From positions 1,674,001-1,738,000 of the forward strand of contig CM039005.1 of assembly GCA_017499595.2 (NCBI GenBank): DNA of 64,000 bases, read 5' to 3'. Origin of the DNA: Psilocybe cubensis (lineage: Eukaryota). Under the pieces are notes generated by a model, which did no database searches, was not told where the DNA came from, and saw only the letters and a program-made list of their open reading frames with translations. Shown here one piece after another: positions 313 through 61,011 of this stretch. The number at the start of each line of letters is the position of its first letter. Position 1 is the first letter of the stretch. Position numbers and translations under genes: made by a program.

Positions 313-1954
313 TTACATGTAAGGTGCTACAAAGTCCACTACACGGATTGTATCAATCGGTGAAGCATAGCACATACGTCCAGAGACTGGACATAACGTC
401 ATCAAGAAGCGATCGACAGGTGACGTTTCGTGCCAGCCCATTGAATGCTGTAGGGGACGCCTAGGTGCAGAAGAAATTTTGGACCACTGAAACGGGGTGG
501 CCACTATGTTGACCCCCCGATCAGAACTCCAATACATGAAGGTATGTTCATTTGAGATTCGGTATTCCTCAAGATAGCCATCGTCGGAAGGTAGTTTGAA
601 TTCTCCCACTTCATGCACACAGATCTGCTGCTCCCCTTTAGCAAGCATATTTGTAGCTGAAGGTAAATCCAGTCGATAGCGGGAGACCTCCACGCTCTCC
701 TCGCTGAAAGAGAAAATGATGTCGATTTCAAAAGGTTGGTTAAACCCGTTATACCATTCGTCGAGAATCTCGACGTTGTACCCAGAACTAGGTACACCAT
801 GACGCAGATCAAGCGATAACCTTTTGAGGGGTTCCAAATCTTGAATGACCTCCGCTTCGACGCTTCCACAAGGATGTAACTGTGGGATGGCCCAAACGAA
901 TATAGAATTGCTGTTGCATAGGACAACAAATTCATCCCTAAGAGTAACCTCAATTGAGCTGTCAGGATTACTTGTATAAAATTACAGTAGAATATGGACA
1001 CGGACCCTATCAAAGTTTCCAGATAGAGGGACAGTCCATGAAGCTTTGGTATCCGACACGAAATCCCACACACAGATACTATTGTTGACAATCATGGCTA
1101 ATTTATTGGCGGATAATGAGTAAGGCTGGTGGTTGCGGTCATCAAGTATAATTGTATGTGTCGCAATTTTGTGAAAAGAAGAATTAGGATGTGTTGGAAA
1201 TATTTCATAGATTACAATACTTCGATTCCTGTTGGACTTGAGCATCGGCAGACGAAGGAAGACACTGCGATTCCTATGAATATAACACCCACCATCGATT
1301 GTCAATGTGCCAGGCATCTGAGTAAGATAGGAAAAGGATGCCCTGGTTATCAGGTGTCAGATGACAGGGATGAGGCCCTCCAAAAGGTGCCTCGTCGAGA
1401 ATTGCTATGGGGTAACACTGGGATAAATCTTTATACATCCCAGGGGTCCCAAGGTCCCAAAGCATTACGGTTGGCACATTGATACTGACCCTGTGCTCTG
1501 ATAACAAGAACCGACCTCCCGGAATGAGATATAGCTGAGTCACTTCTTCTAAATCAGGCACACGTTGGTGCAAATTCCAAAGATCGATACAATGACGGCC
1601 AAAGGTCTTCAATGGCCCTCCAGAACCATGACTTCTAAGGAGATTGTTGAGAAACGTTGAAGGGGATGCAGTGGCATGCTCGAAATCCTTCAGGTGCATA
1701 GTATCCACTGAGTAGGTTGTTGGTAGAACAGTGTTCTCAAGGCACATAGCTCGAAATCTATCTTTCCATAGAGACAGACACATAGAGGCAGCGTAGAAAG
1801 AAGAGCAAACCTAGATCAGCCCATCAGTAATACAGCAACCATCATGTTAAAGAGTTCGACTTGCCGGTCGGAACCCTATTATTATATCTTGTGGGGGCAA
1901 GAAGGCTAGGATTTCCAATAAAACATCCAATGGAAAATGCGACATTCGTCGCAT
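313..1954 (-). CDS. F-box domain protein (Agaricomycete-expanded family), multi-exon
   Basis: ATG at 1954 gives MRRMSHFPLDVLLEILAFLPPQDIIIGFR, then (GC-AG intron) VCSSFYAASMCLSLWK, an F-box signature. Later exons contain LYLIPGGRFLL...LWDLG and end LCPVSGRMC...VVDF. Paralog of 28973-30728. Confidence 0.8.
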
Positions 1955-28972: not shown

Positions 28973-30728
28973 ATGACCATAACAAATATTTCAGGCCTCT
29001 CTTTAGACATCTTCATACACCTCTTTTCCTTTACGCCACCACGAGATGTCATTGTGGGAGCTAGGCGGGTATGTTTTTATCCATTATCAGGGACAACCTG
29101 GTTAAACAAGCTCAGGTATGCCAGAATTGGTACCATGCCTCAATGAATCTCTCGTTGTGGAAAGCTCTGTTTCGGCGCGTGTCTATGGAGAACTCGTTGC
29201 TGATATCAGAATGTGGCATGACTTTGAAAGATTACGAAAATGCAGCGACTGCTCCTGCTCGTTTTCTCTCCAGTTTTCAATCGTCCAACCAGCATGGTAT
29301 TCCACTGAAGGTTTACTCAAGTCATTACATCGATACAGATCTTCTCAGAGACATCCCAGTCTTTTCCGAATCCGTATCCGCGGTATACCTCGTTCCTGGT
29401 GGACAGTTTATGTTAACTCAACATGAAGGCTTCACTTCAGAGATCCATCTTTGGGACCTTGGTGCTCCCGGAAAATCCGACCGAGGTCATGATTTTCAAG
29501 ACCTTTTGCCACTTGCTTCCCTCGAGGACCGTTCCTTTCTCTCGTCTCTCCCAGCTCACCCCACCGGAAATGGGCAAGGAATAATATTGTTTGCCTGCAA
29601 GGACGCGCTTGGAGAGGAAGAAGGGGAATGGTGAGTCTTGCAAGTTTACTATTTTAAGTTGTATGCGTTGGATTTCTGATACCGTCTTTAAGCGAACGAG
29701 ATATTTTTGTCTATGAAATCTATCCAATGTTAGAGGGCGCATCATTTCGTCAAATTGCTACCCAAAGCTATAACTACAGTGCGAATGAAGATCTTTCTTA
29801 CGCGTTTAATCACAACAAGTTGGTCATGTTTGTCGATGAGGGCATTGTCCGTATCTGGGACTACGTTACTAGTACTCAAGCAACATGGTCTGTGCCAATG
29901 TACCCAATAATCAGTAATGTAAGCTTTGACACTTACTCACTCTTGGTTCTTTTTCTGATGTATGTTGAAGATTTTTCTTCGAGGCGAAATAGTTATAATT
30001 CAACATAGCAACTTGGTTTCTCTCTATACAATCCCAGAATTGCATACCCTTGACAGTTCCCTTTCAAGCGATGCACAAAGTTGGGATCCTATCTTCAGCT
30101 CAGAACTCCCTTCTATTCCCCAAATTTCTCCCCAGTTTGAAGTAGAAGCTCCGGATCCCTGGTACAATCAATCAGAACTTCCTATTCATATTGATTCTCT
30201 GATATACTCAGAGGGCGAAGAGCCATACAACCAAAGCCAATCAGCCATTCGCTACCGTCTCTATGTTTCCTCTCTTGTCGATGAATACCTTTCGAATCGT
30301 TCTGCATCACAGCTGCACAACAAAGAATCCGACTTCACTACAATTCCTGCTAGCGACGGCTGTTTAGAGGGATACAGATTCTGTGAAAAACAAATGATCT
30401 CATTCTCGAGTTTTGACAAGGGGTTATCAATTCAAAGGGCTCAAATGGATATTACAAATGTCCCACTTTTGTTAGACCAGCCCCGCATGACAACAGCTGT
30501 ACATCGCTGTCCTCAAAACGAGAAAACTCTGGTCTCGCTGTGTTCGGCGTCAGGGCGTTTTGTCAACTGTCACGCCGAAAGGCTCTTGATTGAGATAGTT
30601 GACTTTCTTCCTCATCCATCTTCTGGTAAGTGATCGATTTATTTCCAATATCCGGCGTAGAGTTTGACACATTGTTATCCTAATTAGAGGGCAAACCTTT
30701 GCCTGAATACGAAAGTGATTCAGACTGA
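28973..30728 (+). CDS. F-box domain protein (paralog of 313-1954)
   Basis: MTITNISGLSLDIFIHLFSFTPPRDVIVGARR|VCQNWYHASMNLSLWK; VYLVPGGQFML...LWDLG; LCSASGRF...IVDF. Confidence 0.8.
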
Positions 30729-40308: not shown

Positions 40309-43300
40309 CTAGACGCCGTCGTTATCTTGACCAGGATCACCGTTGGGGTTTTGGGATCCACTTCCACCTGGTTGATTGGGATTGCCCGGTTGGAACATTC
40401 TACTTTGACGATATCCGCCCCAGTTGAATGTCTGTCGTCCACAGTCATCGGGAGGATTTAAAACAAGCTGCCCACGAGTGGAGCCTGTATAGGTGTCGAG
40501 AGTCATGATTCCATTGTTGATCATGTAATTTCCGAAACGAGTCATAAGCGCTGCCCACTCATTCAAATGGTTGTCGTTGTCGTTGTCGTCTCCCGGGTAC
40601 CAGAAAAGATCGTTTTGATTACCACAGTTTAGAACTCGGGCGCGACGATTGCGATTGGGATCCTGATTGTCAACTCGCCCACGTCCGTTATTTCCCCGTC
40701 TAAATTGACCGTGGAAAGCGACGACGGCATGTATACCTGGTGCAGCGCCATGAGTAGCCGTTGCCTGTCTAATGTGATCGGTGTGGAAGTGGAAAACGAC
40801 ATAACGATCCGGATTAGTGTGTGCATCGGAAGGATTTTCGTCTTGGAAATTAGAGTTAATTCCTCCTGCCCCACTTCCAGAGGGTAGATTCCAGACGACT
40901 GATTGCGCCTCCGTTAATCAAACACATATACTATGAAGTCTGAGAAACATACCTTCAAGGATGGTTTCTTCAGATCCAGATCCTGTTGCAAGAATCATCT
41001 GCTCATATTCAATGGTCATTTGACCGTTCAGAATGGCCTCCACCATGAAACCTTATGCAATAATTTAGCTCGACAAAGAGTACAGAGTGGTAATTACTCA
41101 CCCCACGATGGTTCTCCGTCGGGCCCTGTGTTGGTTGTGTGTTCACTGTCACCCAGGTTCCTCGAAAGTAAGGAAGCCTTCTCCGATGCTGTCGAGCTGA
41201 CATTGTCAATGTTCTCAAAGCTGGTAAAGCCTCTATGCCAGAAGTCGGATGCACTCGTATCTCGTCTGCTGACCAGGTTACAGGAATTGGTGCAAACTTG
41301 GGTTCGGCTGCTATGATAGTCGGCTAAGAAGTTGATTGCATCATTCCCCATGCAAAGCAAGCTCTCCGATAGCGAAAGTTGATCCATATTTGGCCTTTAT
41401 AAATTCATGAGCATTAAGTCATTTCGTCAATAGTTGTTTATGTCAACGCACCAGTCGCCAAAGTATGAGGATATATTCGAAACAAACAGTCCATGACTCG
41501 CACCGTAGATTGTATCAAAGGCAGATTCCATTAGGTTCTGTTGATAGGTTTGACCATTTCCAGAAACGAGCTGCGTGAGCTGCTGGAGAGTTTGAGCCAT
41601 ATCAGCGTTGCTCAGTGTCGTCCGCTTGTCGAGGCGGGAGAGAATATCATCGATCTCTCTAGAGTATTGTATCTGTCCAACTTTGCAGGTTGCATCAGAT
41701 GAAAACGCCTGGATTCGCTTTGTGAAATCAGCGACTAAAGGATCATTCTAATAACCAACCATAAGCTCAAAAAACTTGTAGCAACAACGATTGGCTTACT
41801 GTAGTTGTAGGGTTGTCGCAACAGAACGCGCCATAACCTTTAGTTGATGCAACTTGTGAGAAATTTAAACGATATCGGTTCAAGGGATATACGAACCGCT
41901 CCAGCAGCCAGTAGGATCGGTTGCGATAACCGACTTTCCGGCTGGACATGTTCCAGTACAGACAAATGGAATCTGACCCAAGAATTTTCCACCATGGTAA
42001 TACCAGTCGCAATTCTCGTATGGAGGAGGTTGGTCGCAGCAGAATGACTGCGTTCGATGTTGTTGTCAGATGGGATACGGTAGCAGTTACTCTGCAACTC
42101 ACCTTGTCACCAATCGCACACGGTTGCTCACCTCCAGCGCCATAATTACTGTTCGTGAGGGCCTTTTGACCATCAGGGCATCCAGCCTGGCTGAATGGAG
42201 CAGAACAAATAGGCGCGCTTCCAGACCAATGGCACTCCGATACAGCCTGATCCGAAGCCGTCTTGAGGCAGCAGAGGACCTTATGTCCTGTCCAACATTC
42301 CGCGCCAGTTCCAGTGGTAGATGATGTAACTTCAACTTCGCCATCATGACATTTCCCGTTACAGAATGGCGCACCACCTCGCCATGTGCAAGTTGGCATG
42401 TCGTTGCTTGGGCAGCAATACAGTCGCATATCGTCGCCTGAACAGCCGGTGTTGGTCCCAGTGTTACCCCTATTCTTACCGTCGCTGCGCTGCGCAGGGC
42501 TTAACCCCGCAGGGCATGATTTACCACATTCGCCGAGCTGGCACGAGGTAATGGGGTCAGATTGTTTTGTTGCTAGAAGCGATAAAGCTTGTCGTCCAGT
42601 TGACTTGGACAAAGCACCGGCGGCATTGCCCTTCGCGTCATCCGTAGAAGAGGCCCAAACCATGGTCCCACCGAGACAGTGCGAGTTGGCGTAGTCAATC
42701 TTCATCTTGAAAGTGTCAGAATCGTCATATGATACCCATTGGTTGTTATTATATGTGACCATTTTGACGGCAGCTTTAGTATCGGTCGCGACATGGGCGC
42801 CTGCTGCGACAAGGCGTTGAATTTCGGCGAACGAGAGGGTTCCGACGGATTGGGTACATGTGCCAGCATCTCCCCCAGAAGTGAAGACACAACCAGGGGT
42901 ATTACAGCTAGGATCAGCGAGGGTAAACGAACGACCATAGAATCCAAGTCCCAGTACGACGTTGTCTGGGTTAATTTTGTTACGCCAGAGGAGAGACAAG
43001 GCTTCATCAATTTCCGTAAGATTGGTGTGGGCAGCAATGTACGGTCCCAAAAATTTGTTTGTCGAATCCCAAGTACCGTGAAGGTCATAAGACATGAGGT
43101 TGAACCAATCGATCGTCTTCTCAATGTTCACGATATCAAAGTGTTGGAGGTACCAAAACGACGATGGAATCTGAGAAAGCAGTTATTATCAGCATTGCAA
43201 CATGAGTGGAAAGGAAGTTAACGTACTGTGATCGTAAGTCCATAATTGTGCCCCGTCGAATGAAGGGCATTTCTAAGGTTCTGCAGGAAGGTGACATAGT

Positions 43301-44181
43301 TTTTGTAATCGTCGGGCTTTCCAGAGCGTTCTGGAGCTACGGGATACTCCCTACAATGATAATGAAGTTAGGAAGCAGCGGATCATACTTGAGAAAGAGA
43401 AACTAACCAATCAATGTCGACACCGTCGAAGCCGTATGTCTCCAAGAATGACAATACCGATGCAAAGAACTTGGACTGTGCATCACTCGACCCAGCAAGG
43501 TCAGAGAAAGTAGTAGCAGTAGGTTGGTCTGGATCATTCATGGACCACCCGCCAATCGAAATCCAGGTTTGAAGTCCCGGATTGGTATTTTTAAGTGCCG
43601 TAAAGCGCTTGTACAAAGCAGGGTCGGCGTCGCTCATCGGTGATAAAGCAAATGTGGTTGGGTTCTGCATTGGGAATTTTAACACAAGTTTTCATGATTA
43701 CAGAATGCAAGACACTTACGACGAAAGCAAAAGCAAAGTTCAGATGGGTGTACGAGCCAATTGGAATGCTTTCTGGATACATCTTGTCGCATGGACGAGT
43801 AACACTCCAAGCTTCATAATACCCAATGGTCCGTTTTGAAGAGCTAGATCCGCCAGAGCAAGAAGGGGCAGTTACCGTGGCATTTCCACAAAAGTCTGAT
43901 GTTGTCCCGCAGAATCCGAATTTTGAGCAGCAAACTTTTAGGGGACATTCCTCAGCGTTGGACCACTGCGCACCCCAACCGGGATCACAGTCAGACTTGC
44001 GATCGCAGTTGGATATGCAGTTCTCTGGTCCACAGGAGTCTGGGCCTAAGCCACAGGAGCCAAACTTTGTGCAACATCCAATTTCGCAAGGTTGGGTGGG
44101 ACTGCAAGTGAATTGTGCCGACGTGGCCACACTTAAAAGGAGTGCCGTCAGCCAGATTGGTGCACCGAGTGCGAGCTTCAT
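40309..44181 (-). CDS. Killer-toxin-like (subgroup C) GH18 chitinase: signal peptide, 2x CBM18/hevein, GH18, Cys-rich repeats, uncharacterised C-terminal domain
   Basis: CSPTQPCEIGCCTKFGSCG and CPLKVCCSKFGFCG (CBM18); YTHLNFAFA, ISIGGW, FDGVDIDW|EYP (intact DxDxE), NLMSYDLHG; spliced reading continues to the stop at 40309. Confidence 0.93.
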
Positions 44182-45073
44182 GGTCGACCGCTCTTTGCAA
44201 AATCTGAAGCCTTGGGATTTCGCCGATAGATGGGAGGGTTTGGTCGGCTTTCGATAAACTCATGGCCAGTGATATGTTGTAGTTTATAAGTTGCTATCAT
44301 TTCGGATTGAAAAGGTCGTAAGCTGGCTTTAGTTTGCATCTCGTCATCATGTAGACCGTCCTAAGATCTCGCACGCGACGTAATATGAAAATAACGGAGA
44401 GTACGTTGGATGAACATGTGAACGATATTTTGGGTGTTGTGTAGTATAGATCATGGTTGAGTTGACAGGAACAGGTAACGCTAATGTCACTAAACTGATC
44501 AAATTCGGCTTATAGCGGGCATATCCGTTGGCCGAACGGTTCTAAAATGACGCTCTACACGCGCTTATCATGATGTGCAACGCGAGACTCGTGGCAACTT
44601 CCAATCAACCACGACAACTATCATCTTGCAACTGCAAACTTGCGATGTATCGAGTAACTTCACGTCATGGTTGATGTGAAAATCTCTGGTCTGTGTCTAT
44701 TCTTCAGCGCTGAGCCGTTAAAACCCAAGATCCGATATCATATGTCCAAGTTTCAGACCTTCAGTAGACCGTTTTTGCCGACTGTATGACATGTTCTGGA
44801 TCTGGAATTAATCTGTAGGAGCTTTTATGTGTTCTAAAGTTACTAATCGTGCCTTCCATTGCTACTTGCAACATTACACTATGTCAATATGTTATCTCAG
44901 GATCCATTTTCTGATTCATTGACCGATTTCATCACGGATGCACAAGTGTATTTGCGACAACACTTACCCAATTTCTTTCTTACCACTTTGGGATCCCGAT
45001 AACCGTATGTATTGTGAACCTTTTTTTTTGCACACTCCATTCATCCCCCACTTTGCGTCGCGCCGGTAGTATC

Positions 45074-47247
45074 ATGTTTACTCGACTGGCCTACCCTCTG
45101 GCCTTTTCATGGATTCTGCCCCGTGTCCATGCCCAGTTCAATCTATTCGTTGATGGAACGCAGGCCGTCTCAGATATCTCACAAGGTTGCACCACAGCTC
45201 TAAACGCGACCATTAATTGCGATCCATATCTACAACAGCTGGTGTCAGACGATTATTATGGCAGTCTCAACAACGCGACCCTTCAAAATTCCGTTTGTGC
45301 AGCGTCATGTGGTATCTCTTTGAAGTCCTATCATAACACGGTTGCTTCTGCTTGTGCCAATGATCCCCAGCCTTGGGATGGTGTACCAGCCGTTTGGGCG
45401 GGAGACGTTATATGGGCGGCCTACAATCAGACATGTTTGAAAGATCCCACCACCGGAGCGTATTGTGTCGGTAAATAACTCTTCATACTCCACATCTCTA
45501 TTTTTTTGCTTTCCTAAACTCATATCGGGTTGCATAGACCAAATAGCTTCTAGTGGTGATACTGATCAAGATATTCTTGCGCTACCCCAGACCCAGTTAT
45601 GTTCCCCTTGCACCCTAGCTCTCATAAAAGTCATGCAAAGCACTCCATTCTCCAACTACGATAGCTCATACGCCCAGAAGTATGCCCAAATTCAATCTAT
45701 CTGCAACACTGGACCTCTTCCAACTGGAGCCCAACCTCCTGCCACCAATATCACTGCCCTTCCAGGAGTTGCATCCGGCAATCCAGCTAGTTCTACCTGT
45801 CTTTCTGGCAATCATTATACTGTTCAGGCTGGAGATGATCCCCAGGCAATTGCAGTCGCACATGGCGTTCCTACTGGACCTCTGAAAACCCTCAATGGAA
45901 TCTTCCCTGACGGCACTAACCTATTCGCCGGCCAAGATTTGTACGTACTCAAATTACCGTCTATGTAATGGTAATCTTTGACAATGACATTTTCTGCGAT
46001 TAGATGTCTACCTAGGACGTGTCCTATCTATCTAGTACAGGCGAATGACAACTGTGCCGCTGTCGCTTCGGCACATGGCCTCACCTTCGCACAGCTGGTT
46101 AGCTACAACCCATCGATAAACCAGGACTGCTCTAACCTTGTTTCAAATACCAATATATGTGTCGGGCCTTCTGGAGCCGAATATACCCCTACAACGATAC
46201 CTGGGGCTACTTCAACCACTTCAGGCTTTGCAATCTCCACCGTAGCCCCTCCTGGTGCCACGCCCTTCGGAACCACCCCGGAGTGCGGTAAATTCTATCA
46301 GGTCAACAGTGGAGATAACTGCCAACAAATCTCCCTTAACAACAGTATCAATGTCGATCTTTTCGAACAGATTAACCCATCGATTAATTCGGGGTGCACC
46401 AATTTGACTCCTGGTTTGTATTATTGTGTCTGGCCGCTCTCGGACTGGAATGCCACAATCACCACAACCTCCACCATTGCAACCCCTCCAGGGCCAACAC
46501 CTTCTGGCAGCACGCCCAACTGTTACCAATGGTAAGCTAGCATGCCTATCACATGGACTCCCGCTAATGTATTGAACCTACCTACATCTTCTATTTTCTT
46601 GTAAAGGCATACTATTGTTTCAGGAGACACTTGTTCAGTATTAGAAGCATCCTTCGGCATTACCATGGCTCAACTACAAACCTGGAACCCCCAGCTTAAC
46701 AATGACTGCACTAACCTTTTACTAGGCGAAGCGTAAGTTTTTCATATATGCCGGAGTTAATATTCAATTTCGGGGCTATCTGACCCTGATCCATCGGCAG
46801 CTATTGCGTTAATGGCGCAGCTCCGGGATCGTCAATCACTTCCACCCCGGCGTCTAGCACACCAACAGTCACACCGACCTCAACCCCAACGTCAACCGCT
46901 ACCGGTTCAGCCACCCCGCCAGGCCCCACGCAGGCCGGAATTGCAAGCAACTGCGATAAATACGTTCTTCAACAAGATGGTAAGTGTTGCGGTCTCTTTT
47001 AAACTCCGGGCGCTTATCAATTGACGCCGTGGGCTGTTCGATGACTTCAGGCATCTTCTGCTTTGACATGGCCAACAATGCAGGTATAACGCTGGACCAA
47101 CTGTACGCATGGAACCCTGCGTTGAATGGGGATTGTTCGGGCCTGTGGGAAGGCTATGCGTATTGCATCGGAGTGTCTTCGACGTCAGCAGCTCACAGAC
47201 GCCGTCACCAGCAGCGAGCAGTAGAACATGCTGCTGTACATTACTAA
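45074..47247 (+). CDS. Secreted LysM (CBM50) protein with N-terminal Cys-rich domain and 5 LysM repeats
   Basis: Signal peptide; LysM repeats YTVQAGDD, YLVQANDNC...YNPSI, FYQVNSGDNC...INPSI, HTIVSGDTC...WNPQL, YVLQQDGIFC...WNPAL; Thr/Pro linkers. Confidence 0.95.
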
Positions 47248-48115: not shown

Positions 48116-50238
48116 TCAGAGCTTTAAAATCTCGTCAGTATGCTAATAGAGTGCGTGTTAACTTCATAATTACGTATGTAGTAGATGAGAATCTTACCAA
48201 TGGCACAAGACTTGAGAGCTATAGATGTTGCAGTCAACGAAAGAATATACGGGTAGATCATCTTAACCGACCTTGGGGTCGGATATAACTTTACACATCT
48301 CCCGCTTTCTCTGATGAGGAGCTAAACACCGACTATGTCCCCTGAGGCTGCAACTAAGCTCGTGGCACTTGGTCTTATTAATGAAGTCGTCCATTTTCGC
48401 TTTTTGGGACTTTTGTGCCTCGTAGATTGCACTCCTTTGAAAATATTTCACATTGGTATCACACATTCTGCATGGTATTATTGAACGAACCTTGCAGCTT
48501 CCATTATTTGTGCATACGTGGGTGTCCTGTTCTCTTTCAGAAGCGCGACGATTGCCTAATGGTATGTCATGATTATTGAGCAATAGGGGACCCCTATCGT
48601 TGCTGCACGTACGGTTGTCATTGTACCTCCATCTGGTCCTTCTACGGATTGTTGAGAATCGTCGCAAGCAGAGATGGATATCTACCGCGCCAGTCATTGA
48701 GTCAGAACTTTGACGCGGAGGCCCCAAAGTAGTCATAGAGCGTACCACTTGACAACGTCTTCCACGGACTCGACGACAAAAGCCATTACATTTGGTCATT
48801 TTCGCTTCTTTAGGTTTCTTCGGCGACCTAGATGCAATATCCTTTGAACGGCTGTGATTTTTTTTGGCGGCAATCAATAGCAATCGGGAAGTTTTTACTC
48901 GCTGCTTGACTCTGTTCTTCTGCTGGGATAGAGGTTCGGTTATCACTGAGAGCAAAAAAGGTGCTAAGTATGAATTCTCTACGAGCCACGAGCTACGTGC
49001 ACATACCTTTTCGAAGTCCATTCTGAACTAGAGCAAGATAAATTGTACGTATAATTGACGATATTCATTATCAATTCTCACCAAAGCCCCTCCATCCACC
49101 AATGTGATTGCAACGTTGATGCTCAAGGTCTGTAGGATAACTTTGAGAAATGTTTCATAGATAAACTTGCCAAGGTGAGGCCTACTGAGTAGAGTCCCTG
49201 AGTGGCATGTATCGAAGAGGGCCTATAATCCAATGTTATTTTTGCAACAGACCACCAATTCAGATTAGTCCAGCTTACAGTGAGACGGGAGTGCTTGGGA
49301 AGGCAATTTACAAGATGCTCTCTCAAAGTCTATATACAATAATTATGAGCATGAGTTATGGCAGGAACAGTCCCACTGACCTTGTCGGTAATGATCCGTT
49401 CGTGATTAATGTCGGTAATGGTCCATCCATGATTCAGATACTGTACACGACATGCATCACTTGGAATAAGGACTGAAAGCGTTGATGAGTACATTTTTCC
49501 AACTACGTCGTTCTGTAGATAATGGGAAATCCGTACATTCTTCCTGGCCGTCTTCTTCTACTCCAGCAAAATCATCACGATGGAATGAATGACCTGAGTC
49601 TGTGTTCATTGTCAAAAGGATGTTTCGAACTAGATCAAAGGCAAGACATACACGCGAAGAAAAAATCGGCGTTCGAGTTGTCAGTCATACAGTTCTTTAA
49701 TTCCCTCATCTGCAAAATAGATATTACAAATGGATGTTGTGAACGGCATAAAAAGACATACGATGTTGTCGTGCGTGGGAAGCAGTTCTGTCGGTGTTCC
49801 TTGCCTATCACTTAGAATAATAAATTTCGTGTAATTAAAATCATCTGCAGTAGAGCATTAAGCCTGCTGCACTACAAAAGAATGAAAATATAACTTACTC
49901 CTCAATAAGTCCTCTAATAAGTGTATGTCTTTATGTGAACCTGTCAGCTCATATCTTCCGTCGCCACGCAAATAGCCAATGCCAATGAGAAAAGCGATTT
50001 TTTCCTTGTCGCGATGTCGGAACCTGGCCTAGATAGAACGTGTCAATATGTATAATTGTAAAGAAAACGAGAAAGAGTCGGTGCTTACTAGTGTGCGCAA
50101 ATACAAACGAAGTTTGCGAAACACTTTCGCGGTGCGTGCTGTCTGTGATACCAGCGGGACGGTGTCGGATGAGGGAGACAATGTTTGCTGCAAATCAGGA
50201 TCTTCGAGAGGCACATAATAACTGGGTGCTGTGGACAT
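48116..50238 (-). CDS. Metacaspase (peptidase C14) no. 1, multi-exon
   Basis: Spliced: KIAFLIGIGY...LTGSHKDI; PTHDNI|MREL...FFFAYSGHS; EEDGQEEFLIPSD; ALFDTCHSGTLL; ISISACDDSQQS; LSSLVPL. TATAAAA at ~50287-50293. Confidence 0.88.
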
Positions 50239-51349: not shown

Positions 51350-53703
51350 TTATGGAGCAAAGAGTCGTGTCATGTCCTGAATTTTTGGCTAATCATCAGT
51401 ATACGGATACTTGGATAAAGTTCAGAAAAAAGCTTACAAGTGGAAGGTCACTGGAAAGCTAATTGAATGATGCCACCCAAAAGAACAAAAAGTTGTTTTA
51501 GCATCACGCTTCAAACATGAAGAAATGGCAAGACCACTTTTGTCAGAATGCTAACCTGAGGATTTTGAAAATTATTCATCTCCACCGGATCACCCTCCCT
51601 GGGCTTCTTCCCCTTTTTACGCATTTTTTCATTTGCTATCCTGACGGCTTTCTTATACTCTCGAGCTCGGTCATGCAAATCCACATAAAAAGCGTGGATG
51701 TCGTGACTGAGAATAAGAAACACGATAAATATGATATATTCTACATCGTTGAAAAAGTTGAAAGATGCACCTAACAAGCGTCATTAGGTCCGCTAACGTA
51801 GGATGGGGATCTTTCCCTAGACACAGCATCAGCCAAGGCCGCCTACAGAGCATACGAGGATTTGCTTACTCAATATGTTAACGAGAACTTGTGTCATCGA
51901 CGTGCCGTTCCTGTCTTCCCAAGACTTCTGGCCATCTTTCGCGGAAGAAATAGAGATCTGATGTCATTAAGAGGAGAAATTTTCACAAGTAAGCCAGCTG
52001 TTCTAGGTGGGAGAGCACGAGGACATACGACGTCCGCTTGCACAGCGCTTTCGTCATGAAGTGCATGCTGTCTACAGTAGCCAGTGCAGTACATTGCTAC
52101 CGGTGAAGAACATTCCTGCCGAACGGTGGGAGAGTCTATCCAGAATTTAGAGGCGGATGTCGACACCAGGTCCGTGGTGATGGACAACTTGGATTTGACG
52201 TGCCCAGCTGTACCCGGATTGGGTGTTCCTTCATGTATTGATATAGAGTCTGTAGGCGAAATAAGAACTTTATCGATGGACGAGTGCGCCCAAGCTTGCG
52301 CCTTTAGCCGCGTTATAGCATTTGGCATTGAAATCTCTAGAAAAAGGGACGCGAAAAACGCGAATTGTCTGTTAGAACAAGGATGGGCAATCAGTTGTCC
52401 TAAAAGCTCACTTGCTCGCTGACGTTCTTCAAAAAGATCAATGGGTAATGTGAGCTGATCATTCCTCTCCCTCAAGATGTAAAGGGTGAACTCACTATTA
52501 CTATTCAACAGGGTGGCCGTCTTTCGAGTTCCTTTGTTTATCCAGGGCACATAGACGCGATTACATCTGAAATGCTTCAGGTCTGCTCAAAGGTAATCAG
52601 TACCGTTGTCCGCGTTGGAAGTTGGACTTCAGTTTCTTCCGAAGTACAGACCCATACATACCAAGCAAAGAGCCTGAGTGACATGAGTCAAAGACAGCCT
52701 AGCGGCATAATTAAGAAGGATCCACATTTACAAAAGGCCGTGCTCACAATCAAAGATGTTTTTGGTGGTAGTGGGTCAACGAGTGTTTCTTTTAGTATCT
52801 GGAAATATCTCGACTGAGCAAGGGAATGGTAGTTGGACAACAGCACCCAATCTTACATCGTCCTTAATTCTCTTGCCGTCAGAGGTCTCGATGACTATGT
52901 AGTCAAGATTATATTTCTCCGCATGATATATGTGATAATCAATCCGACTTACATTCGTTCTTGCGATCTTCTTCGGAAATATCTTCTGTATCTTCCTGTA
53001 CCGAGTGACCAGAGACTAAGCACAGAAGATGTGTTAGACGTTGCAAAGAGGATTACGACATCTCGAAACACTAACAATGGAAGAAAAAGCGATCTCCCTC
53101 TTGAGCTCCCTCCACTAATTTTTTCATTTCATACATCTTATGTCCGGATTAGACAGGTTAAATACATCAAGGTTTGTTGAACCATCACATACAATGTTCT
53201 CTTGGGTAGGTTGTTTATGACCTGGTAAGTCATTATCTATGAGGATTACAATATCCTCGGGTTTATAATCATAAACCTCTGATACAAGCGAAGAGCGTTT
53301 GAGTACTAGGCTACCAAGAAAAGCAAAAGGTGCCCTGTTACGCACCTATCAAAAGCTTCCGAAGAGCTTCAACGTCTCTATGAGGCCCTTTCAGCAAACT
53401 CTGTTTCATGGACTTCTTCTCCTGCATCTTCGTCTTCATCCTCTTCAACCCCGTCACCGCAAAGTTGTCTGATCTATTGAACCTGGCCGACAACGGCGAC
53501 AAAGGCCCCGGAGACGCCGGGGATAATGGAGGCTGGTCTCGCACTTCCTGACACCCAATCAACAACGCCTTCTTCCGCGGTGTCTTCACAGCGGGAGCAG
53601 GATTAGCGACGGCCTGTTCTGCAACAGCTGTGGCTGCCAATACTGCCGCCTCAACTGCCTGTCTCCGTCCTTGAGGCCACAAACGACTTCTGATGATCTT
53701 CAT
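51350..53703 (-). CDS. Metacaspase (peptidase C14) no. 2, multi-exon
   Basis: RKKALLIG...LKGPHRDV; PTQENI; GAQEGDRFFFHFSGHS; AVFDSCHSGSLL|DLKHFRCNRVYVPW; FQNPQ|LSSDLPL|DM. Confidence 0.9.
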
Positions 53704-57226: not shown

Positions 57227-57659
57227 GGCTGCAATGCAGATTATGGGATATGCAAGGGTTTCGACAGCCCAAGCTGTTGTAATTGGTGAACCAGTGCCAG
57301 GTTTCCTTGATTGTAGCGCGTCGGCTATTGCCGAACAATTGCTTAGTCATTTTGCTTTTGGACTTGGTTAGGTCCGCCATCCTTCGACAGACGCCAATGA
57401 CATGCACAGCTGCCTTGCCCACTCCATGGAGAGATGAGGCGATTCATATCACACAGCCTTGATATGCTTGAAGGTAAATGGATAAAAACATACTCGTCTT
57501 GCCCTCTGGCCCTCTATCTTGCCCCGCTCCCAACATACTAGTAAGGGCCCCAGTTCACAAACTTTTGAAAAAGAAATGCCAAACCAAGCCTTTTCGTTGG
57601 AGAGATGGAGCCTAAACTGGGTATGTCTGTGCTTCTCTGGGCACAATTCTGAAGTCTAA

Positions 57660-60600
57660 ATGTCTAAAATGAAGAATCCCTTACGGAGATTACGTCGACG
57701 CAAAGTAGCGCTTCTCATCGAGTCGAATCCTTCTGGTTTATCAGGCAGGACTTATCATTCATACACTGAGCGCCTAATTGCGCTACTTGAACGTAATGAG
57801 CTTTTATCTACTCACCCTTCCTTTTTCTGTGGGATTCTGATGGCAGAATTCAGGCGAATATGGCTACAAGGAGATTATTCTACTTTCTGATTCGGACGGA
57901 ACGCACCATGATCGCACTCCGACTTATGCAAACATAGTAAGCAAACTTTTATTTTGAAGTGTTGGTAGGGGCTTATTATTTGTGACCGTAGATGAGGGAG
58001 TTAACTAAGTTCGTAACGCCTAGTCGGCCCTCGGATTACTTTTTTGCATGTGAGCATTTTCTCCAGGACGACAAACTCGTACTGATGGTAGCACACTTTG
58101 TTAGATCTTGGTCATTCTTCAGAGACTTGTTTAGACTCGGTGCAGGACGGGCATGATGAATGTAATAATTGTCATGCATAAATGCCACAGGTAGTTTGAC
58201 CTTTGTGTATACCTCTCAGATATCATTCCTTGCGATGCCGTTGACAATACGACCAGCGTTGTGGACGAAACAAAGATTATCACCGACGATGTTCGTGTCA
58301 GGCCCACCTTTAAAATGAAGCAAACTGATTATATGATTTTTCTGGCAGACTCTGCGACAACTTCTAACCGAGGCCCTTCCCCGGGGATCCAATCTCGTGG
58401 TAAGATACCAGAAATCTTTTTCAAACTTATTATAAACCTTTTGATATCAGGCTCTATTTGATACATGCCATTCAGGAACTTTGCTGGGTTAGTTAATGGC
58501 TCCAAAAGGTGAATAAAACTGACCATTATACCATAGACCTCAAACATCAACCTTGTAATCCCCAGAAACACAAGCTTGCTTTCGGTAAGTTGTGCGAAAG
58601 ACCGGTTCGAATAAATGCCAAGGATTTCTTTCCTATCCACCTTAATGAACTAAAGATCTAATACTTTTCTATCTCAATAATAGGTGAACCGTTCTTCCGT
58701 CGCATTACCGATAGTATTACACCCAAATGGCGAGCTACAATTAAAAGATCGAGTCAGGGGGCTATCGGGTTTGGTCGAGATATTACATCACTCCGCAGTG
58801 TAGCTATCTTCCACGGTTTTGGTTACGTTCGTTCTGCATTTTGACACGAATATAGGACTATAAACCTCATCCAATAGAGCGTACACAACGCAGCCCGCAC
58901 TTATGCGCAGGTCACTCTACAAAGTTTGTCTTTTAAGTATATTTAACCTCTGTCTAGTTGATGATGGTCTTTGCAGGGTTTCCCATTTCTCCCATGCTCG
59001 TGATTTTACAGTGTCCGGCGGGCAATTTTACTCCGCTAACACTATAACTGTCAATCAGACTCCTCAGAAAGGCAAGTCATTGCATCTGAGGAGAATATAT
59101 TCATACATAATAACAAAGGTTTAGAAAAGTCAGAATCTGTGATAGAGAAGAGTTTGATACCGGAAATACCCACAGTAAGCAAGCACCTAAAAGACTGGTA
59201 CCGCACCATAATCTGATTACCTCTCTAGATATCTCCTCGGGATGTTGAATTACACAAAGAAATATACAAAGGACATGACTATCGCATACATTCCGCCCAG
59301 TTATCTGGCAGAGCAATTATCGTTAAAATTTATGAAGGAGAACACGCTACAGAGGTACGCACATCCACCTATGACCATTGAACCTTTCTGTATATATCTA
59401 GTGTCACTTTTTATCAACTAGCTTTCGACCCAAACATGCAAATTTAGTATGAATATAATGTGAGAACAGAGACACCTCTGAGTTGAAAAAATCGGTACGA
59501 ATAATTACCTTCTGGATCCAGGCACCCCGCGTTTCCTCAAATATTTGGTGCGACATCCGGAAGTATGAGTCCCGCTTTTATTGCATTTTGTGGAGGTCAG
59601 TCCATGTTGGTTAAACTTGGAAATATTCAACCGATTCTTATATTTCGATACAGAATATCAAGGCACTGTTGAATCGATTGCTTTTCGATTGTTGTCCAGT
59701 AGTCTTGAGCAATCGTTGGTGCTAGGTCTGCAGTCGGTAAGATCATGTTACCACCTATCATAATTGTAACTGTATTCATTTCGAAGTCCAGGTTGTCTCA
59801 CTCGCTGTATGTTCTGCATGCTCTACATCTCCTTTGACAACCCTGATGCGTAGTGGAACTACAGTCAGGCCTAGATTATTTGTGTAATCTGGACTATCCT
59901 CTTCAAGATACCGATGTAAGTCTATAATGATTGCTGTAGATGGCCTGGTAATACTACTTACCGAATCCCGATGCCCAGAGCTTTATCCTACTCCTTGATA
60001 CTCAAGGCACTGCCAAAATCTGGTTTGATCCAAGCGTTCCCCATAAGTTTGAACAATGCACGGCTTCGGACAGCAAAAGTCGAAAAGATTCTTTGTCATT
60101 AGTTTTTGATCGTCTTCTTCAGAAGGTAGACCAATTATCACAGTGGTGGTCAGCATTCTCACTTCTGACGTTGTTTAGACTTTATACGGACCTTGCAAGT
60201 TTTACCGCCAAAGCAGTAGGTAACCTTCTCCATTGTTTAGAATACAAAATAAAGCTGGACACCTAGATCCCTGCCAAAAGTTTTCATGTGGCTCTACTTG
60301 GGCAGAAATTTCATATAAAAAGAACCCGCCTTTAGACGTAGTAACCCGCTACTCTCAGGCATTTTTAATCGACTTTTTGTTTGATTCCTCGCTCGATCGA
60401 TCGTGCATCGGACACGGTACTCATGGATTAATCTACAATGCTACTGCTACCCATCCAAAGCAGACATTGATGGACGCCTCTGCAGTCCTGAATTCAGGTG
60501 GGCAAGATCAAATTCCTCATAGTTTTCTTCCTGAGATAACATACGCCAGTGAATAACAAACCCAAGGATAATATAGTACCCAACAGTATTTCAAGCATGC

Positions 60601-61011
60601 CTCGAGCCGGCCCTATCAGATCTCCTAGCGGTAAGCCCCTGTACTTTCCCAGTGCCTCGTGCAATTACAATCATGCTACACAACGGATCCAGGTACTGAG
60701 GTTTTTTTATTGAGTACATGTATACAAGGCCACACAATGCTTCAAGTGAGTCTCGTTACAGAGCTCCCAATCTGTCTATACACTTGGTTTATTACTGATC
60801 TTCTTTGTTTATGAAGGTTATTGCGATGCTTCTCACCGCCGACAACACGCCGACGTACAGAGAGCTGCTAATGAGTGCCATGTGAGTGGTTAGTGTCTGG
60901 ATACTAATATGGTGATTGACACTCTCATGTCATGATTACAGCGACGCAATATGCACAGCGGGTTTTACTTCCACTCATCGTCTCACTTCATCGGACAACC
61001 CAAAAGGGTAA
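57660..61011 (+). CDS. Metacaspase no. 3 with inserted amyloid-signalling-like motif and pseudokinase domain (~20 small exons)
   Basis: KVALLIE; PTYANI|MREL...YFFAYLGHS (His at 58113); DEYIIPCD; ALFDTCHSGTLL (Cys at 58466); VSHFSHARDFTVSGGQF; IIVKIYEG...HPAFPQIFG...GLDYL; p10-like VIAMLLTADNTPTYRELL and LTSSDNP near 60818-61011. Splicing at 60550-60750 is unresolved. Confidence 0.7.

What the first reader, a model, noticed from the sequence alone, without database searches (positions are those of the whole stretch)
58978..59058. Basidiomycete amyloid-signalling-like motif FSHARDFTVSGGQF
Seen: VSHFSHARDFTVSGGQFYSANTITVNQ. Known: an F-x-x-A-x-x-F-x-I/V-x-G-G-x-F motif followed by an N/T/V-rich strand is common at the N-termini of Agaricomycete NACHT/NLR proteins and beside MLKL-like or kinase domains, and is proposed to be an amyloid signalling motif. 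Inference: partner NLRs with a matching motif elsewhere in the genome could seed it.
Basis: partly seen in the sequence, partly recalled or inferred. Interest (0 to 1): 0.8.

Follow-up and report, generated by a model that had tools for sequence, protein, structure and literature searches.

The report
Amyloid-like motif inside caspase–pseudokinase protein
A short sequence known from the tips of mushroom immune receptors is really made here, but it sits inside an unusual Psilocybe protein that joins half a metacaspase to a dead kinase, which hints at how such receptors might pass on their signal.

Summary
The peptide VSHFSHARDFTVSGGQFYSANTITVNQ is encoded at 58978-59058 (+). The strict pattern occurs once in six frames, against 0.0003 expected. 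The public Psilocybe cubensis gene model (A0A8H7XWN5) treats this stretch as intron. A spliced cDNA-like contig of run X1 instead keeps it as a 95-nt exon, in frame with everything around it. My rebuilt model has 22 exons and 585 aa: a metacaspase p20-like domain with the His/Cys dyad kept and p10 lost, a linker, the motif (aa 255-268), then a kinase-fold domain without HRD or DFG. The motif fits the published NLR05/NLR22 class of "amyloid-like" motifs at the N-termini of Agaricomycete NACHT receptors. The same motif lies upstream of the pseudokinase domain in 66 of 122 Agaricales homologues and never downstream of it. A profile built from 47 of those homologues picks out only this site in the window (E 6e-7). 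Many homologues end in PHD, homeodomain, HMG, zinc-finger or dsRNA-binding domains. Amyloid behaviour is untested for this motif class. No NLR lies in the 64 kb, and no genome was available for a partner search. It is a new variant of a known kind, because I found neither the pseudokinase family nor the metacaspase fusion described in print as carriers of this motif.

The parts
57576..60556 (+). Coding region of the rebuilt gene: 22 exons, 585 aa. The mRNA runs from about 57387 to about 60789. CDS exon ends: 57576-57620, 57675-57792, 57854-57936, 57992-58049, 58105-58161, 58220-58290, 58349-58399, 58451-58487, 58537-58584, 58684-58799, 58856-58923, 58977-59071, 59125-59174, 59229-59354, 59422-59459, 59522-59595, 59654-59736, 59792-59806, 59865-59915, 59979-60125, 60179-60215, 60267-60556.
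   Evidence: One search lists 16 joints of spliced contigs of run X1 directly. Four joints (57792>57854, 59915>59979, 60125>60179, 60215>60267) were inferred from the contig's own coordinates, a loose end and GT..AG sites. The result is one open frame of 585 codons. The start codon is the first in-frame ATG of the first exon seen, so the 5' end is the least certain part.
57753..58562 (+). Metacaspase p20-like domain (aa 42-182, spread over 8 exons) with YLGHS (His104) and DTCHSG (Cys167). No p10 part follows it.
   Evidence: phmmer against PDB hit yeast Mca1 (7qp0, 4f6o) at E 5e-15 to 1e-14, with the GH and DxCHSG columns aligned. The 17 Agaricomycete homologues are caspase domain proteins; 14 of the 17 carry PF00656. 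A profile of these 17 aligns only aa 42-182 of the full protein. Pfam itself gave no hit on P0001.
58684..58923 (+). Two linker exons (58684-58799 and 58856-58923) that the public model leaves out. They encode EPFFRR...SLRS and DYKPHPIERTQRSPHLCAGHSTK.
   Evidence: Joints 58583>58683, 58799>58856 and 58923>58977. The frame is continuous.
58977..59071 (+). Motif exon (95 nt). The finding's peptide is at 58978-59058 (aa 252-278) and the core FSHARDFTVSGGQF at 58987-59028 (aa 255-268).
59072..59124 (+). GC..AG intron (53 nt) directly after the motif exon.
   Evidence: Joint 59069>59123 with 2 ambiguous letters. The ends read GCAAGT...GTTTAG.
59125..60047 (+). A 31-aa spacer, then the kinase-fold pseudokinase domain (aa about 283-451, 8 exons, including a 15-nt micro-exon at 59792-59806). 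The beta3 lysine is kept (IIVKIY). There is no HRD..N catalytic loop and no DFG.
   Evidence: ESM Atlas structure match to Pkinase/PK_Tyr_Ser-Thr with TM 0.75-0.79. There are 157 relatives at E<=1e-3. The AF2 model of homologue P0026 matches BTK and JAK2 JH1/JH2 at E about 1e-7. In the family alignment, 0 of 110 have HRDxxxxN and 100 of 110 have K at the beta3 column.
60048..60556 (+). C-terminal tail (aa about 452-585). It is shared with the P. cyanescens copies, and no Pfam domain was found in it.

Best explanation
SHOWN. The segment is a translated exon of an expressed Psilocybe cubensis gene, and the public model of that gene is wrong. The protein has 585 aa: a metacaspase p20-like domain (dyad kept, p10 lost), a linker of about 70 aa, an NLR05/NLR22-class motif, a 31-aa spacer, a pseudokinase and a tail. 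Motif plus pseudokinase is an old Agaricales module in which the motif normally sits at the extreme N-terminus. In Psilocybe (P. cubensis, and twice in tandem in P. cyanescens) the front half of a metacaspase has been fused ahead of it. In AF2 models of two homologues the motif is a low to moderate confidence coil outside the folded kinase core. INFERRED. The motif is a flexible homotypic assembly handle. The same motif class heads dozens of NACHT receptors per Agaricomycete genome. An activated, oligomerised NLR would therefore present stacked copies that recruit, and possibly template in a beta-arch or amyloid-like manner, the copy in this protein. That would cluster the caspase-like and pseudokinase domains, giving proximity-induced activation much as RHIM does for RIPK1/3 or CARD for caspases. 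My odds: NLR05/22-class motif in a real protein 0.9; homotypic co-assembly with NLRs 0.45; truly amyloid 0.3.
For: Gene model and translation: spliced contig joints, consistent splice sites and one 585-codon frame. Motif class: published NLR N-termini labelled NLR05 or NLR05/NLR22 show the same F..A..F.[IV].GG.F pattern; 9 of 17 positions are identical to KIK60073.1 by my reading. Module: my profile finds the motif at >=10 bits upstream of the pseudokinase domain in 66 of 122 homologues that have >=24 aa upstream, including 19 of 75 not used for training. It finds 0 of 122 in the five-fold longer downstream parts. The gap from motif to domain is 14-47 aa in the 21 strict-pattern cases and 31 aa here. 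Conservation: P. cyanescens copy 2 keeps GGQFYSA (7 of 7), then TINQ against TVNQ, while the following spacer diverges. Flexibility: in P0026, residues 1-45 have pLDDT 43-60 with no secondary structure, against 94-98 for the domain. In P0036 the 10-residue blocks over 1-40 average 56, 75, 56 and 67, with the motif (9-22) in coil. NLR side in the genus: 26 of 67 P. cyanescens NLR rows read carry NLR05/22/29. By accession order, PPQ88809.1 (NACHT, NLR05 at 1-16) and three other NLRs lie close to PPQ88804.1, the P. cyanescens counterpart; treating accession order as gene order is my inference. PKinase is a listed N-terminal effector class of fungal NLRs (Dyrka 2014, PMC4986451, passage seen).
Against: No NLR05-type motif has been tested for amyloid or prion behaviour. 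In the 2022 paper only 28% of NLR05 instances pass ArchCandy, and no neighbour or effector partner was found. Here the motif is internal, whereas the class is typically within the first 20 residues. After GGQF the sequence (YSANTITVNQ) departs from the family's NN[VI]xG[ND] second half, and the profile alignment is weak there. No NACHT or NB-ARC was detected in the 64-kb window, so there is no linkage of the HET-S/NWD2 kind. The caspase-like domain lacks p10, so it may not be an active protease. The P. cyanescens models appear to have lost the dyad. The commonest family subtype (FISNA..FTLGEGVYNNVHGN) was not found among the NLR N-terminal cluster alignments that are held (0 occurrences, file cut when stored). 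Only the GG subtype is visibly shared: IYGGTF occurs in 2 Hebeloma NLRs.
Confidence: 0.45

Rival explanations
1. The motif is a conserved short linear motif that works without amyloid. It could be a docking peptide for a shared partner, a regulatory tail that binds the pseudokinase or NACHT domain in cis, or a localisation or turnover signal. NLRs and pseudokinases would then share it because they share that partner.
For: The motif is short and lies in unstructured tails. In P0036 the block of residues 11-20 reaches mean pLDDT 75, which may reflect a weak packing preference. The low ArchCandy pass rate and missing effector partners in print fit this reading. Many family members end in nuclear or chromatin domains: 24 of 146 have PHD, PAH, HMG, C2H2, Zn_clus, homeodomain, bZIP, SCA7 or dsrm hits. 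That fits a regulatory role as well as it fits cell-death signalling.
Against: Sharing one terminal motif between NLR N-termini and unrelated domains within a genome is the known signature of amyloid signalling pairs (PMC9815663, sections read). The strand, GG turn, strand, N/T-rich strand layout is typical of beta-arch motifs; this is my own reading with no tool behind it.
Confidence: 0.3
2. The motif is inherited baggage in a young chimeric gene. A metacaspase duplicate lost its 3' half and was joined to a motif-pseudokinase gene. The product is transcribed, but the motif, now internal, no longer does anything.
For: Three metacaspase-like genes lie within 10 kb (DTCHSG or DSCHSG at 58460+, 49196-, 52672-). 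p10 is lost. The C-terminal PHD-like finger of the family consensus is absent here. The second half of the motif is degenerate. Six upstream ATGs lie in the assumed 5' UTR.
Against: A 585-codon frame is kept across 21 introns. The same architecture is present twice in P. cyanescens, with GGQFYSA conserved while the neighbouring spacer diverged. The His/Cys dyad and the beta3 lysine are kept.
Confidence: 0.15
3. The stretch is not coding: it is intron, as in the public model A0A8H7XWN5, which splices 58585..59058.
For: The UniRef protein P0001 lacks the motif and joins ...HKLAF directly to DSSERQ....
Against: The X1 contig shows no such joint. It shows 58583>58683, 58799>58856, 58923>58977 and 59069>59123 instead, all with GT..AG or GC..AG ends, and the frame stays open. 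The model's 474-nt intron would be far longer than the 21 introns of my model, which span 49-99 nt. The model's ATG at 57660 lies inside an intron that the contig removes.
Confidence: 0.03
4. The 'motif' is a decayed remnant of the metacaspase p10 strand (V-x-S-x-S-A-C-x-D-x-Q ... G-x-S/T-M/L-T). MAFFT places the two in the same columns.
For: In a six-sequence MAFFT alignment, HLCAGHSTKVSHFSHARDFTVSGGQF falls opposite CNGxC...V.S.SAC.D.Q...(D/N)G of the paralogues.
Against: The caspase-family profile aligns only aa 42-182 and gives no p10 alignment, whereas the pseudokinase-family motif profile aligns aa 254-279 at 21.8 bits. The spacing to the pseudokinase domain matches the family.
Confidence: 0.02

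Closest known systems
NLR05/08/22/29/44 meta-family of amyloid-like motifs in Agaricomycete NLR N-termini (Wojciechowski et al. 2022, PMC9815663)
   Same: The sequence pattern F-x-x-[AS]-x-x-F-x-[IV]-x-G-G-x-F, the Agaricomycete host, and the unstructured context. Published instances read in the supplements share 9 of 17 positions with this one.
   Different: Published instances are mostly at residues 1-20 of NACHT or NB-ARC proteins. This one is at aa 255-268 of a non-NLR protein. The paper reports no kinase or caspase carriers in its main text ('kinase' occurs only in references, 'caspase' 0 times) and no effector-side partners for NLR05. Its S1 Text (PDF) could not be read.
HET-s/NWD2, HELLP/PNT1 (PP) and sigma-type two-component amyloid signalling of Ascomycota
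   Same: The proposed logic is the same: one short motif on an NLR N-terminus and on a separate executing protein.
   Different: In those systems the effector carries the motif at its C-terminus, the genes are adjacent, the effector is a HeLo-type pore former, and amyloid and prion behaviour are shown. None of these was met or testable here.
RIPK1/RIPK3 RHIM necrosome of animals (recalled; relation of PP to RHIM seen in PMC10197012)
   Same: A kinase-fold domain joined to a short assembly motif by a flexible linker, with a link to a caspase-family protease in the same pathway.
   Different: RIPKs are active kinases and RHIM has a different core (I/V-Q-I/V-G). Here the kinase is catalytically dead by sequence and the caspase-like domain is on the same chain. 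This is an analogy, with no homology shown.
Fungal type I metacaspases (yeast Mca1/Yca1; PDB 4f6o, 7qp0)
   Same: The p20 region aligns at E about 1e-14, including the catalytic His and Cys.
   Different: No p10 half, no Pfam PF00656 hit on P0001, and a pseudokinase in its place.
JAK2 JH2-type pseudokinases and TKL/Tyr kinase fold
   Same: The fold of homologue P0026 matches BTK and JAK2 JH1/JH2 (Foldseek E about 1e-7, probability 1.0, TM about 0.5). The beta3 lysine is kept.
   Different: No HRD..N and no DFG in 110 aligned family members. Sequence similarity to Pfam kinases is marginal: PK_Tyr_Ser-Thr at E<=1e-3 in 19 of 146, with 9 of 146 above the curated cut-off.

Membership tests
NLR05/NLR22-class amyloid-like motif (PMC9815663) | Sequence fits the motif profile | tested here: inconclusive
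   The published HMMs (S7 Data) are not readable here. As a surrogate, the pattern matches labelled instances in S1 Table and S2 Data, and my own profile from 47 pseudokinase N-termini gives 26.3 bits, E 6.4e-7.
NLR05/NLR22-class amyloid-like motif (PMC9815663) | Agaricomycete host | tested here: met
   The exon is 100% identical to a UniRef protein of Psilocybe cubensis. A neighbouring gene matches 'Metacaspase-1 [Psilocybe cubensis]' P0003.
NLR05/NLR22-class amyloid-like motif (PMC9815663) | Located at the very N-terminus of a NACHT or NB-ARC protein | tested here: not met
   It lies at aa 255-268 of 585 in a protein with no NOD domain. The paper does report 17 NLR05 instances located centrally or C-terminally in longer NLR N-termini.
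NLR05/NLR22-class amyloid-like motif (PMC9815663) | Predicted beta-arch fold (ArchCandy or PCFG score) | not testable with these tools
   Neither program is on hand.
Functional amyloid signalling motif (HET-s, PP, sigma, PUASM standard) | Matching motif on an NLR encoded nearby or in the same genome | tested here: inconclusive
   No NACHT or NB-ARC was found in the window by Walker-A or CHPxTR pattern scan or by Pfam on 27 long ORFs. ORFs broken by introns could hide one. The genome is not held. The congener has many NLR05 NLRs.
Functional amyloid signalling motif (HET-s, PP, sigma, PUASM standard) | Forms amyloid, propagates as a prion, and is seeded by the NLR-side motif | not testable with these tools
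   This is an experimental property.
Metacaspase (peptidase C14B) | p20 with catalytic His-Cys dyad | tested here: met
   Aligned to Mca1 structures with GH and DxCHSG conserved; YLGHS at aa 102 and DTCHSG at aa 165.
Metacaspase (peptidase C14B) | p10 half completing the caspase fold | tested here: not met
   The family profile of 441 nodes aligns only nodes 58-192, to aa 42-182.
Active protein kinase | Kinase fold | tested here: met
   Atlas model of P0001 aa 205-385 has TM 0.75-0.79 to Pkinase clusters. The AF2 model of homologue P0026 matches kinase structures. The window's own spliced protein could not be folded.
Active protein kinase | HRD..N catalytic loop, DFG, glycine-rich loop | tested here: not met
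   0 of 110 family members have HRDxxxxN, and the aligned columns have no HRD or DFG consensus. Here the corresponding stretch reads ...YPLQDTDSFILLLDTQGTAKIWFDPS. The beta3 Lys is present.

The most novel reading that the evidence does not exclude
The NLR05-type motif is the long-missing 'other side' of basidiomycete NLR amyloid signalling. Its partners would not be pore formers but a large Agaricales family of N-terminally tagged pseudokinases fused to chromatin, DNA or RNA-binding domains. NLR activation would then be read out as transcription. In Psilocybe one member has captured a metacaspase half. A Lys/Arg-specific cut at ...GHSTK|VSHF..., by itself or by the full-length metacaspases encoded 6-10 kb away, would unmask the motif at a new N-terminus, exactly where the family and the NLRs carry it. 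That would couple proteolysis to assembly.
Probability: 0.15. Interest if true: 0.85.

Novelty: new variant of a known kind. Interest (0 to 1): 0.6.

Why it matters
The 2022 survey that defined these motifs found hundreds of them on Agaricomycete NLRs but no partner protein for NLR05. Whether they signal at all has therefore stayed open. This locus, and the roughly 150-member family it led to, supply concrete non-NLR carriers of the same motif: pseudokinases, often with PHD, homeodomain, HMG, zinc-finger or dsRBD tails, and in Psilocybe a metacaspase fusion. That makes the question testable by cross-seeding or co-assembly between an NLR N-terminus and a defined partner from one genome. It also suggests outputs other than membrane attack. 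In addition, the analysis corrects a public gene model that hides the motif in an intron.

Tried and rejected
- Whole genome: none is held, so no search for partner NLRs in this genome was possible.
- Pfam on raw ORF pieces of the locus and on P0001: 0 families.
- Word-index protein search with the pseudokinase part of P0001: only the protein itself. The exhaustive HMMER search was needed.
- The look-up of sequencing runs: no RNA holder listed. Run X1 is only guessed to be RNA. I call it cDNA-like because its contig lacks the introns that the DNA run X3 keeps. Depth figures were not used.
- Complex prediction with four copies of the 31-aa motif exon: no answer (score 0.01, controls not run). 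It counts neither for nor against.
- My first hand-made model, with an ATG at 58903 that would give an N-terminal motif: rejected. The contig's donor is at 58923|58924, and that ATG is then out of frame and runs into a stop.
- p10-remnant idea: rejected.
- Published ASM profile HMMs and the S1 Text figures (motif logos, Figs F-I): not readable.
- Literature searches for kinase-, pseudokinase- or metacaspase-linked ASMs in Basidiomycota and term look-ups in PMC9815663, PMC12261475 and PMC10197012: no description of this family or fusion found. PDFs of supplements and papers outside the library were not seen.
- One search failed on a search term that was too short; it was replaced.
Full report
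OBSERVATION. The + strand frame with codons starting at 58978 reads VSHFSHARDFTVSGGQFYSANTITVNQ. The strict pattern F..A..F.[IVL].GG.F occurs once in all six frames of the 64-kb window. The expectation is 0.0003, and 300 shuffles gave no hit.

ORGANISM AND PUBLIC MODEL. The next exon (59229-59354) is 100% identical to UniRef A0A8H7XWN5 of Psilocybe cubensis (P0001, 426 aa). That model joins a caspase-like N-terminal part to a C-terminal part and splices out 58585-59058. In the public annotation the motif is therefore intronic.

TRANSCRIPT EVIDENCE. No run is on record as RNA. When laid on 57600-60400, run X1 nevertheless gives contigs that lack short GT..AG segments which the DNA run X3 retains. 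One 1775-nt contig carries these joints:
- 57936>57992, 58049>58105, 58161>58220, 58290>58349, 58398>58450, 58486>58536
- 58583>58683, 58799>58856, 58923>58977
- 59069>59123 (GC..AG after shifting by the 2 ambiguous letters)
- 59174>59229, 59352>59420, 59459>59522, 59593>59652
- 59738>59865, with 13 letters of a micro-exon in between

A second contig shows 57619>57674, which removes the annotated ATG at 57660. Splice dinucleotides agree. Four joints were not listed and were inferred from the contig's own coordinates.

Joining the exons gives one open frame of 585 codons, from ATG 57576 to a stop ending at 60556. A contig spanning two genes would not by itself prove a single transcript. However, the frame stays open through the three introns and about 90 codons between DTCHSG and the motif. 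The only ATG just upstream of the motif (58903) is out of frame. The motif can therefore only be translated as an internal part of the long protein (aa 255-268).

THE FLANKING DOMAINS.
- N-terminal domain: residues 42-182 are a metacaspase p20. phmmer against PDB hits yeast Mca1 at E 5e-15 to 1e-14, with GH(S) and D(T)CHSG aligned. The 17 nearest relatives are Agaricomycete caspase-domain proteins; 14 of the 17 carry PF00656.
- Loss of p10: a profile of those 17 aligns only the p20 part. The p10 part (CNGWC...V.S.SAC.D.Q) is not detectable, although MAFFT places the motif opposite it.
- C-terminal domain: residues about 283-451 have a kinase fold. The ESM Atlas model matches Pkinase/PK_Tyr_Ser-Thr clusters at TM 0.75-0.79, and the nearest feature clusters are Basidiomycota 'protein kinase domain-containing' proteins (0.93).
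- Family size: exhaustive HMMER with P0001 residues 202-370 found 157 relatives at E<=1e-3 and 33 at E<=1e-10.
- Pseudokinase status: AF2 models of two relatives built with family alignments are confident in the domain (pLDDT 94-98). The first matches BTK and JAK2 JH1/JH2. Across 110 aligned members none has HRDxxxxN and there is no DFG consensus, while the beta3 lysine is present in 100 of 110. This is a pseudokinase family.
- Pfam support: PK_Tyr_Ser-Thr is seen at E<=1e-3 in only 19 of 146 scanned members, and 9 of 146 exceed the curated cut-off.

THE MOTIF IS A FAMILY FEATURE. The relatives were found through the kinase-like domain, so their N-termini are an independent sample.
- A strict pattern lies within 90 aa upstream of the domain in 21 of 149 relatives. 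A looser anchor finds it in 47 of 121.
- A 27-column profile built from those 47 finds the motif at >=10 bits in the upstream part of 66 of 122 proteins, including 19 of 75 not used in training. It finds none in the downstream parts of the same 122, which hold five times more residues.
- The same profile, run on 2708 six-frame pieces of the window, hits only 58864-59121 (E 6.4e-7). It aligns aa 254-279 of the full protein.
- The motif usually starts within the first 4-16 residues. A few members have it further in: P0024 at 196, P0071 at 148, P0074 at 116, P0028 at 82.
- All 20 relatives whose names I looked up are Agaricales: Psilocybe, Gymnopilus, Galerina, Hebeloma, Crassisporium, Phlegmacium, Mycena, Roridomyces, Tetrapyrgos, Gymnopus.
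- 24 of 146 carry a Pfam PHD, PAH, HMG, C2H2, Zn_clus, homeodomain, bZIP, SCA7 or dsrm domain after the pseudokinase. None has NACHT or a Pfam caspase domain. The family consensus ends in a Cys/His-rich PHD-like finger.

PSILOCYBE-SPECIFIC FUSION. The best relative (P0019, PPQ88804.1 of P. cyanescens, 60% identity) is a 1163-aa model holding two tandem copies of caspase-like part plus pseudokinase. The second copy aligns from TGGQFYSAGGSLTINQ, against SGGQFYSANTITVNQ here. GGQFYSA is identical while the spacer that follows has diverged. The first half of the motif is missing from that model. Given the error in the P. cubensis model, this may be an annotation fault, but I could not check the DNA. 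The window also holds two more metacaspase-like genes (49196-, 52672-), which fits duplication followed by fusion.

RELATION TO WHAT IS KNOWN. Wojciechowski et al. [quoted passage not shown] It is proposed to be a basidiomycete variety of HRAM.
- Labelled instances match the present motif: KIK60073.1, KIK60078.1, KTB45912.1 and ESK84058.1.
- The same paper reports no neighbour or effector partner for these motifs, a 28% ArchCandy pass rate for NLR05, and experiments only for PUASM.
- Its main text does not mention kinases (outside the references) or caspases. Further searches found no later description.
- In P. cyanescens, 26 of the 67 NLR rows in the part of S1 Table that I read carry NLR05/22/29, 22 of them NLR05.
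- The GG subtype is shared with NLRs (for example IYGGTF in two Hebeloma NLRs). The LGEG subtype of many pseudokinases was not found in the stored NLR alignments (that file is cut).

MECHANISM. Shown: the motif is translated, conserved, specific in position, and lies outside the folded core. In P0026, residues 1-45 have pLDDT 43-60 with no secondary structure. In P0036 the motif region is coil, with block means of 56-75. Inferred: it acts as a homotypic assembly handle shared with NLRs, so that NLR oligomerisation recruits and clusters this protein. Whether the assembly is a true templated amyloid is open. Rivals, in order of my odds: a non-amyloid linear motif, a functionless relic of the fusion, an untranslated intron (contradicted), and a p10 remnant (contradicted).

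VERDICT. The motif class is known. Its presence on a large pseudokinase family and inside a metacaspase-pseudokinase fusion appears not to be in print, and it offers a concrete partner class to test.

Noticed in passing
window 57387-60789 (+): The public model A0A8H7XWN5 (P0001) is wrong in at least four places. Its ATG (57660) lies in an intron. It skips the exons 58684-58799 and 58856-58923 and most of 58977-59071. It starts one exon at 59059 in another frame. Its 3' end differs after ...PHK.
   Followed up: yes
window 59072-59124 and 59792-59806: One GC..AG intron and one 15-nt micro-exon, both supported by the spliced contig.
   Followed up: yes
window about 48263-49213 (-) and about 51894-52689 (-): Two further metacaspase-like genes (ALFDTCHSGTLL..., which matches P0003 'Metacaspase-1 [Psilocybe cubensis]', and AVFDSCHSGSLL). 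With the gene studied here they form a cluster of three within about 10 kb.
   Followed up: partly
window 29065-30633 (+) and 313-1810 (-): Two paralogous ORF sets share YL[VI]PGG[QR]F[ML]L...LWDLG[AT]PG. The first has a weak F-box-like hit (E 0.0015). They probably belong to an expanded Agaricomycete F-box family.
   Followed up: no
window 41767-46535: A cluster related to chitin: GH18 chitinase (41767-43182, -), a chitin-binding type 1 domain (43591-44259, -) and LysM repeats (45441-46535, +).
   Followed up: no
P0019 (P. cyanescens PPQ88804.1) and S1 Table of PMC9815663: By accession order, the P. cyanescens counterpart sits among NLR genes: PPQ88771, 88794, 88796, and 88809 with NLR05 at 1-16. 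If accession order reflects gene order, the locus lies in an NLR-rich region there. The P. cubensis window shows no NLR.
   Followed up: partly
family proteins P0020-P0167: The C-terminal half of the pseudokinase family has a second confidently folded region (P0036 residues about 276-352, block-mean pLDDT 84-96) with conserved PRRE.VW and HRC.GY.REEITL, followed by a PHD-like finger. This unit has no Pfam name.
   Followed up: no
window 57387-57575: Six upstream ATGs lie in the assumed 5' UTR of the gene.
   Followed up: no
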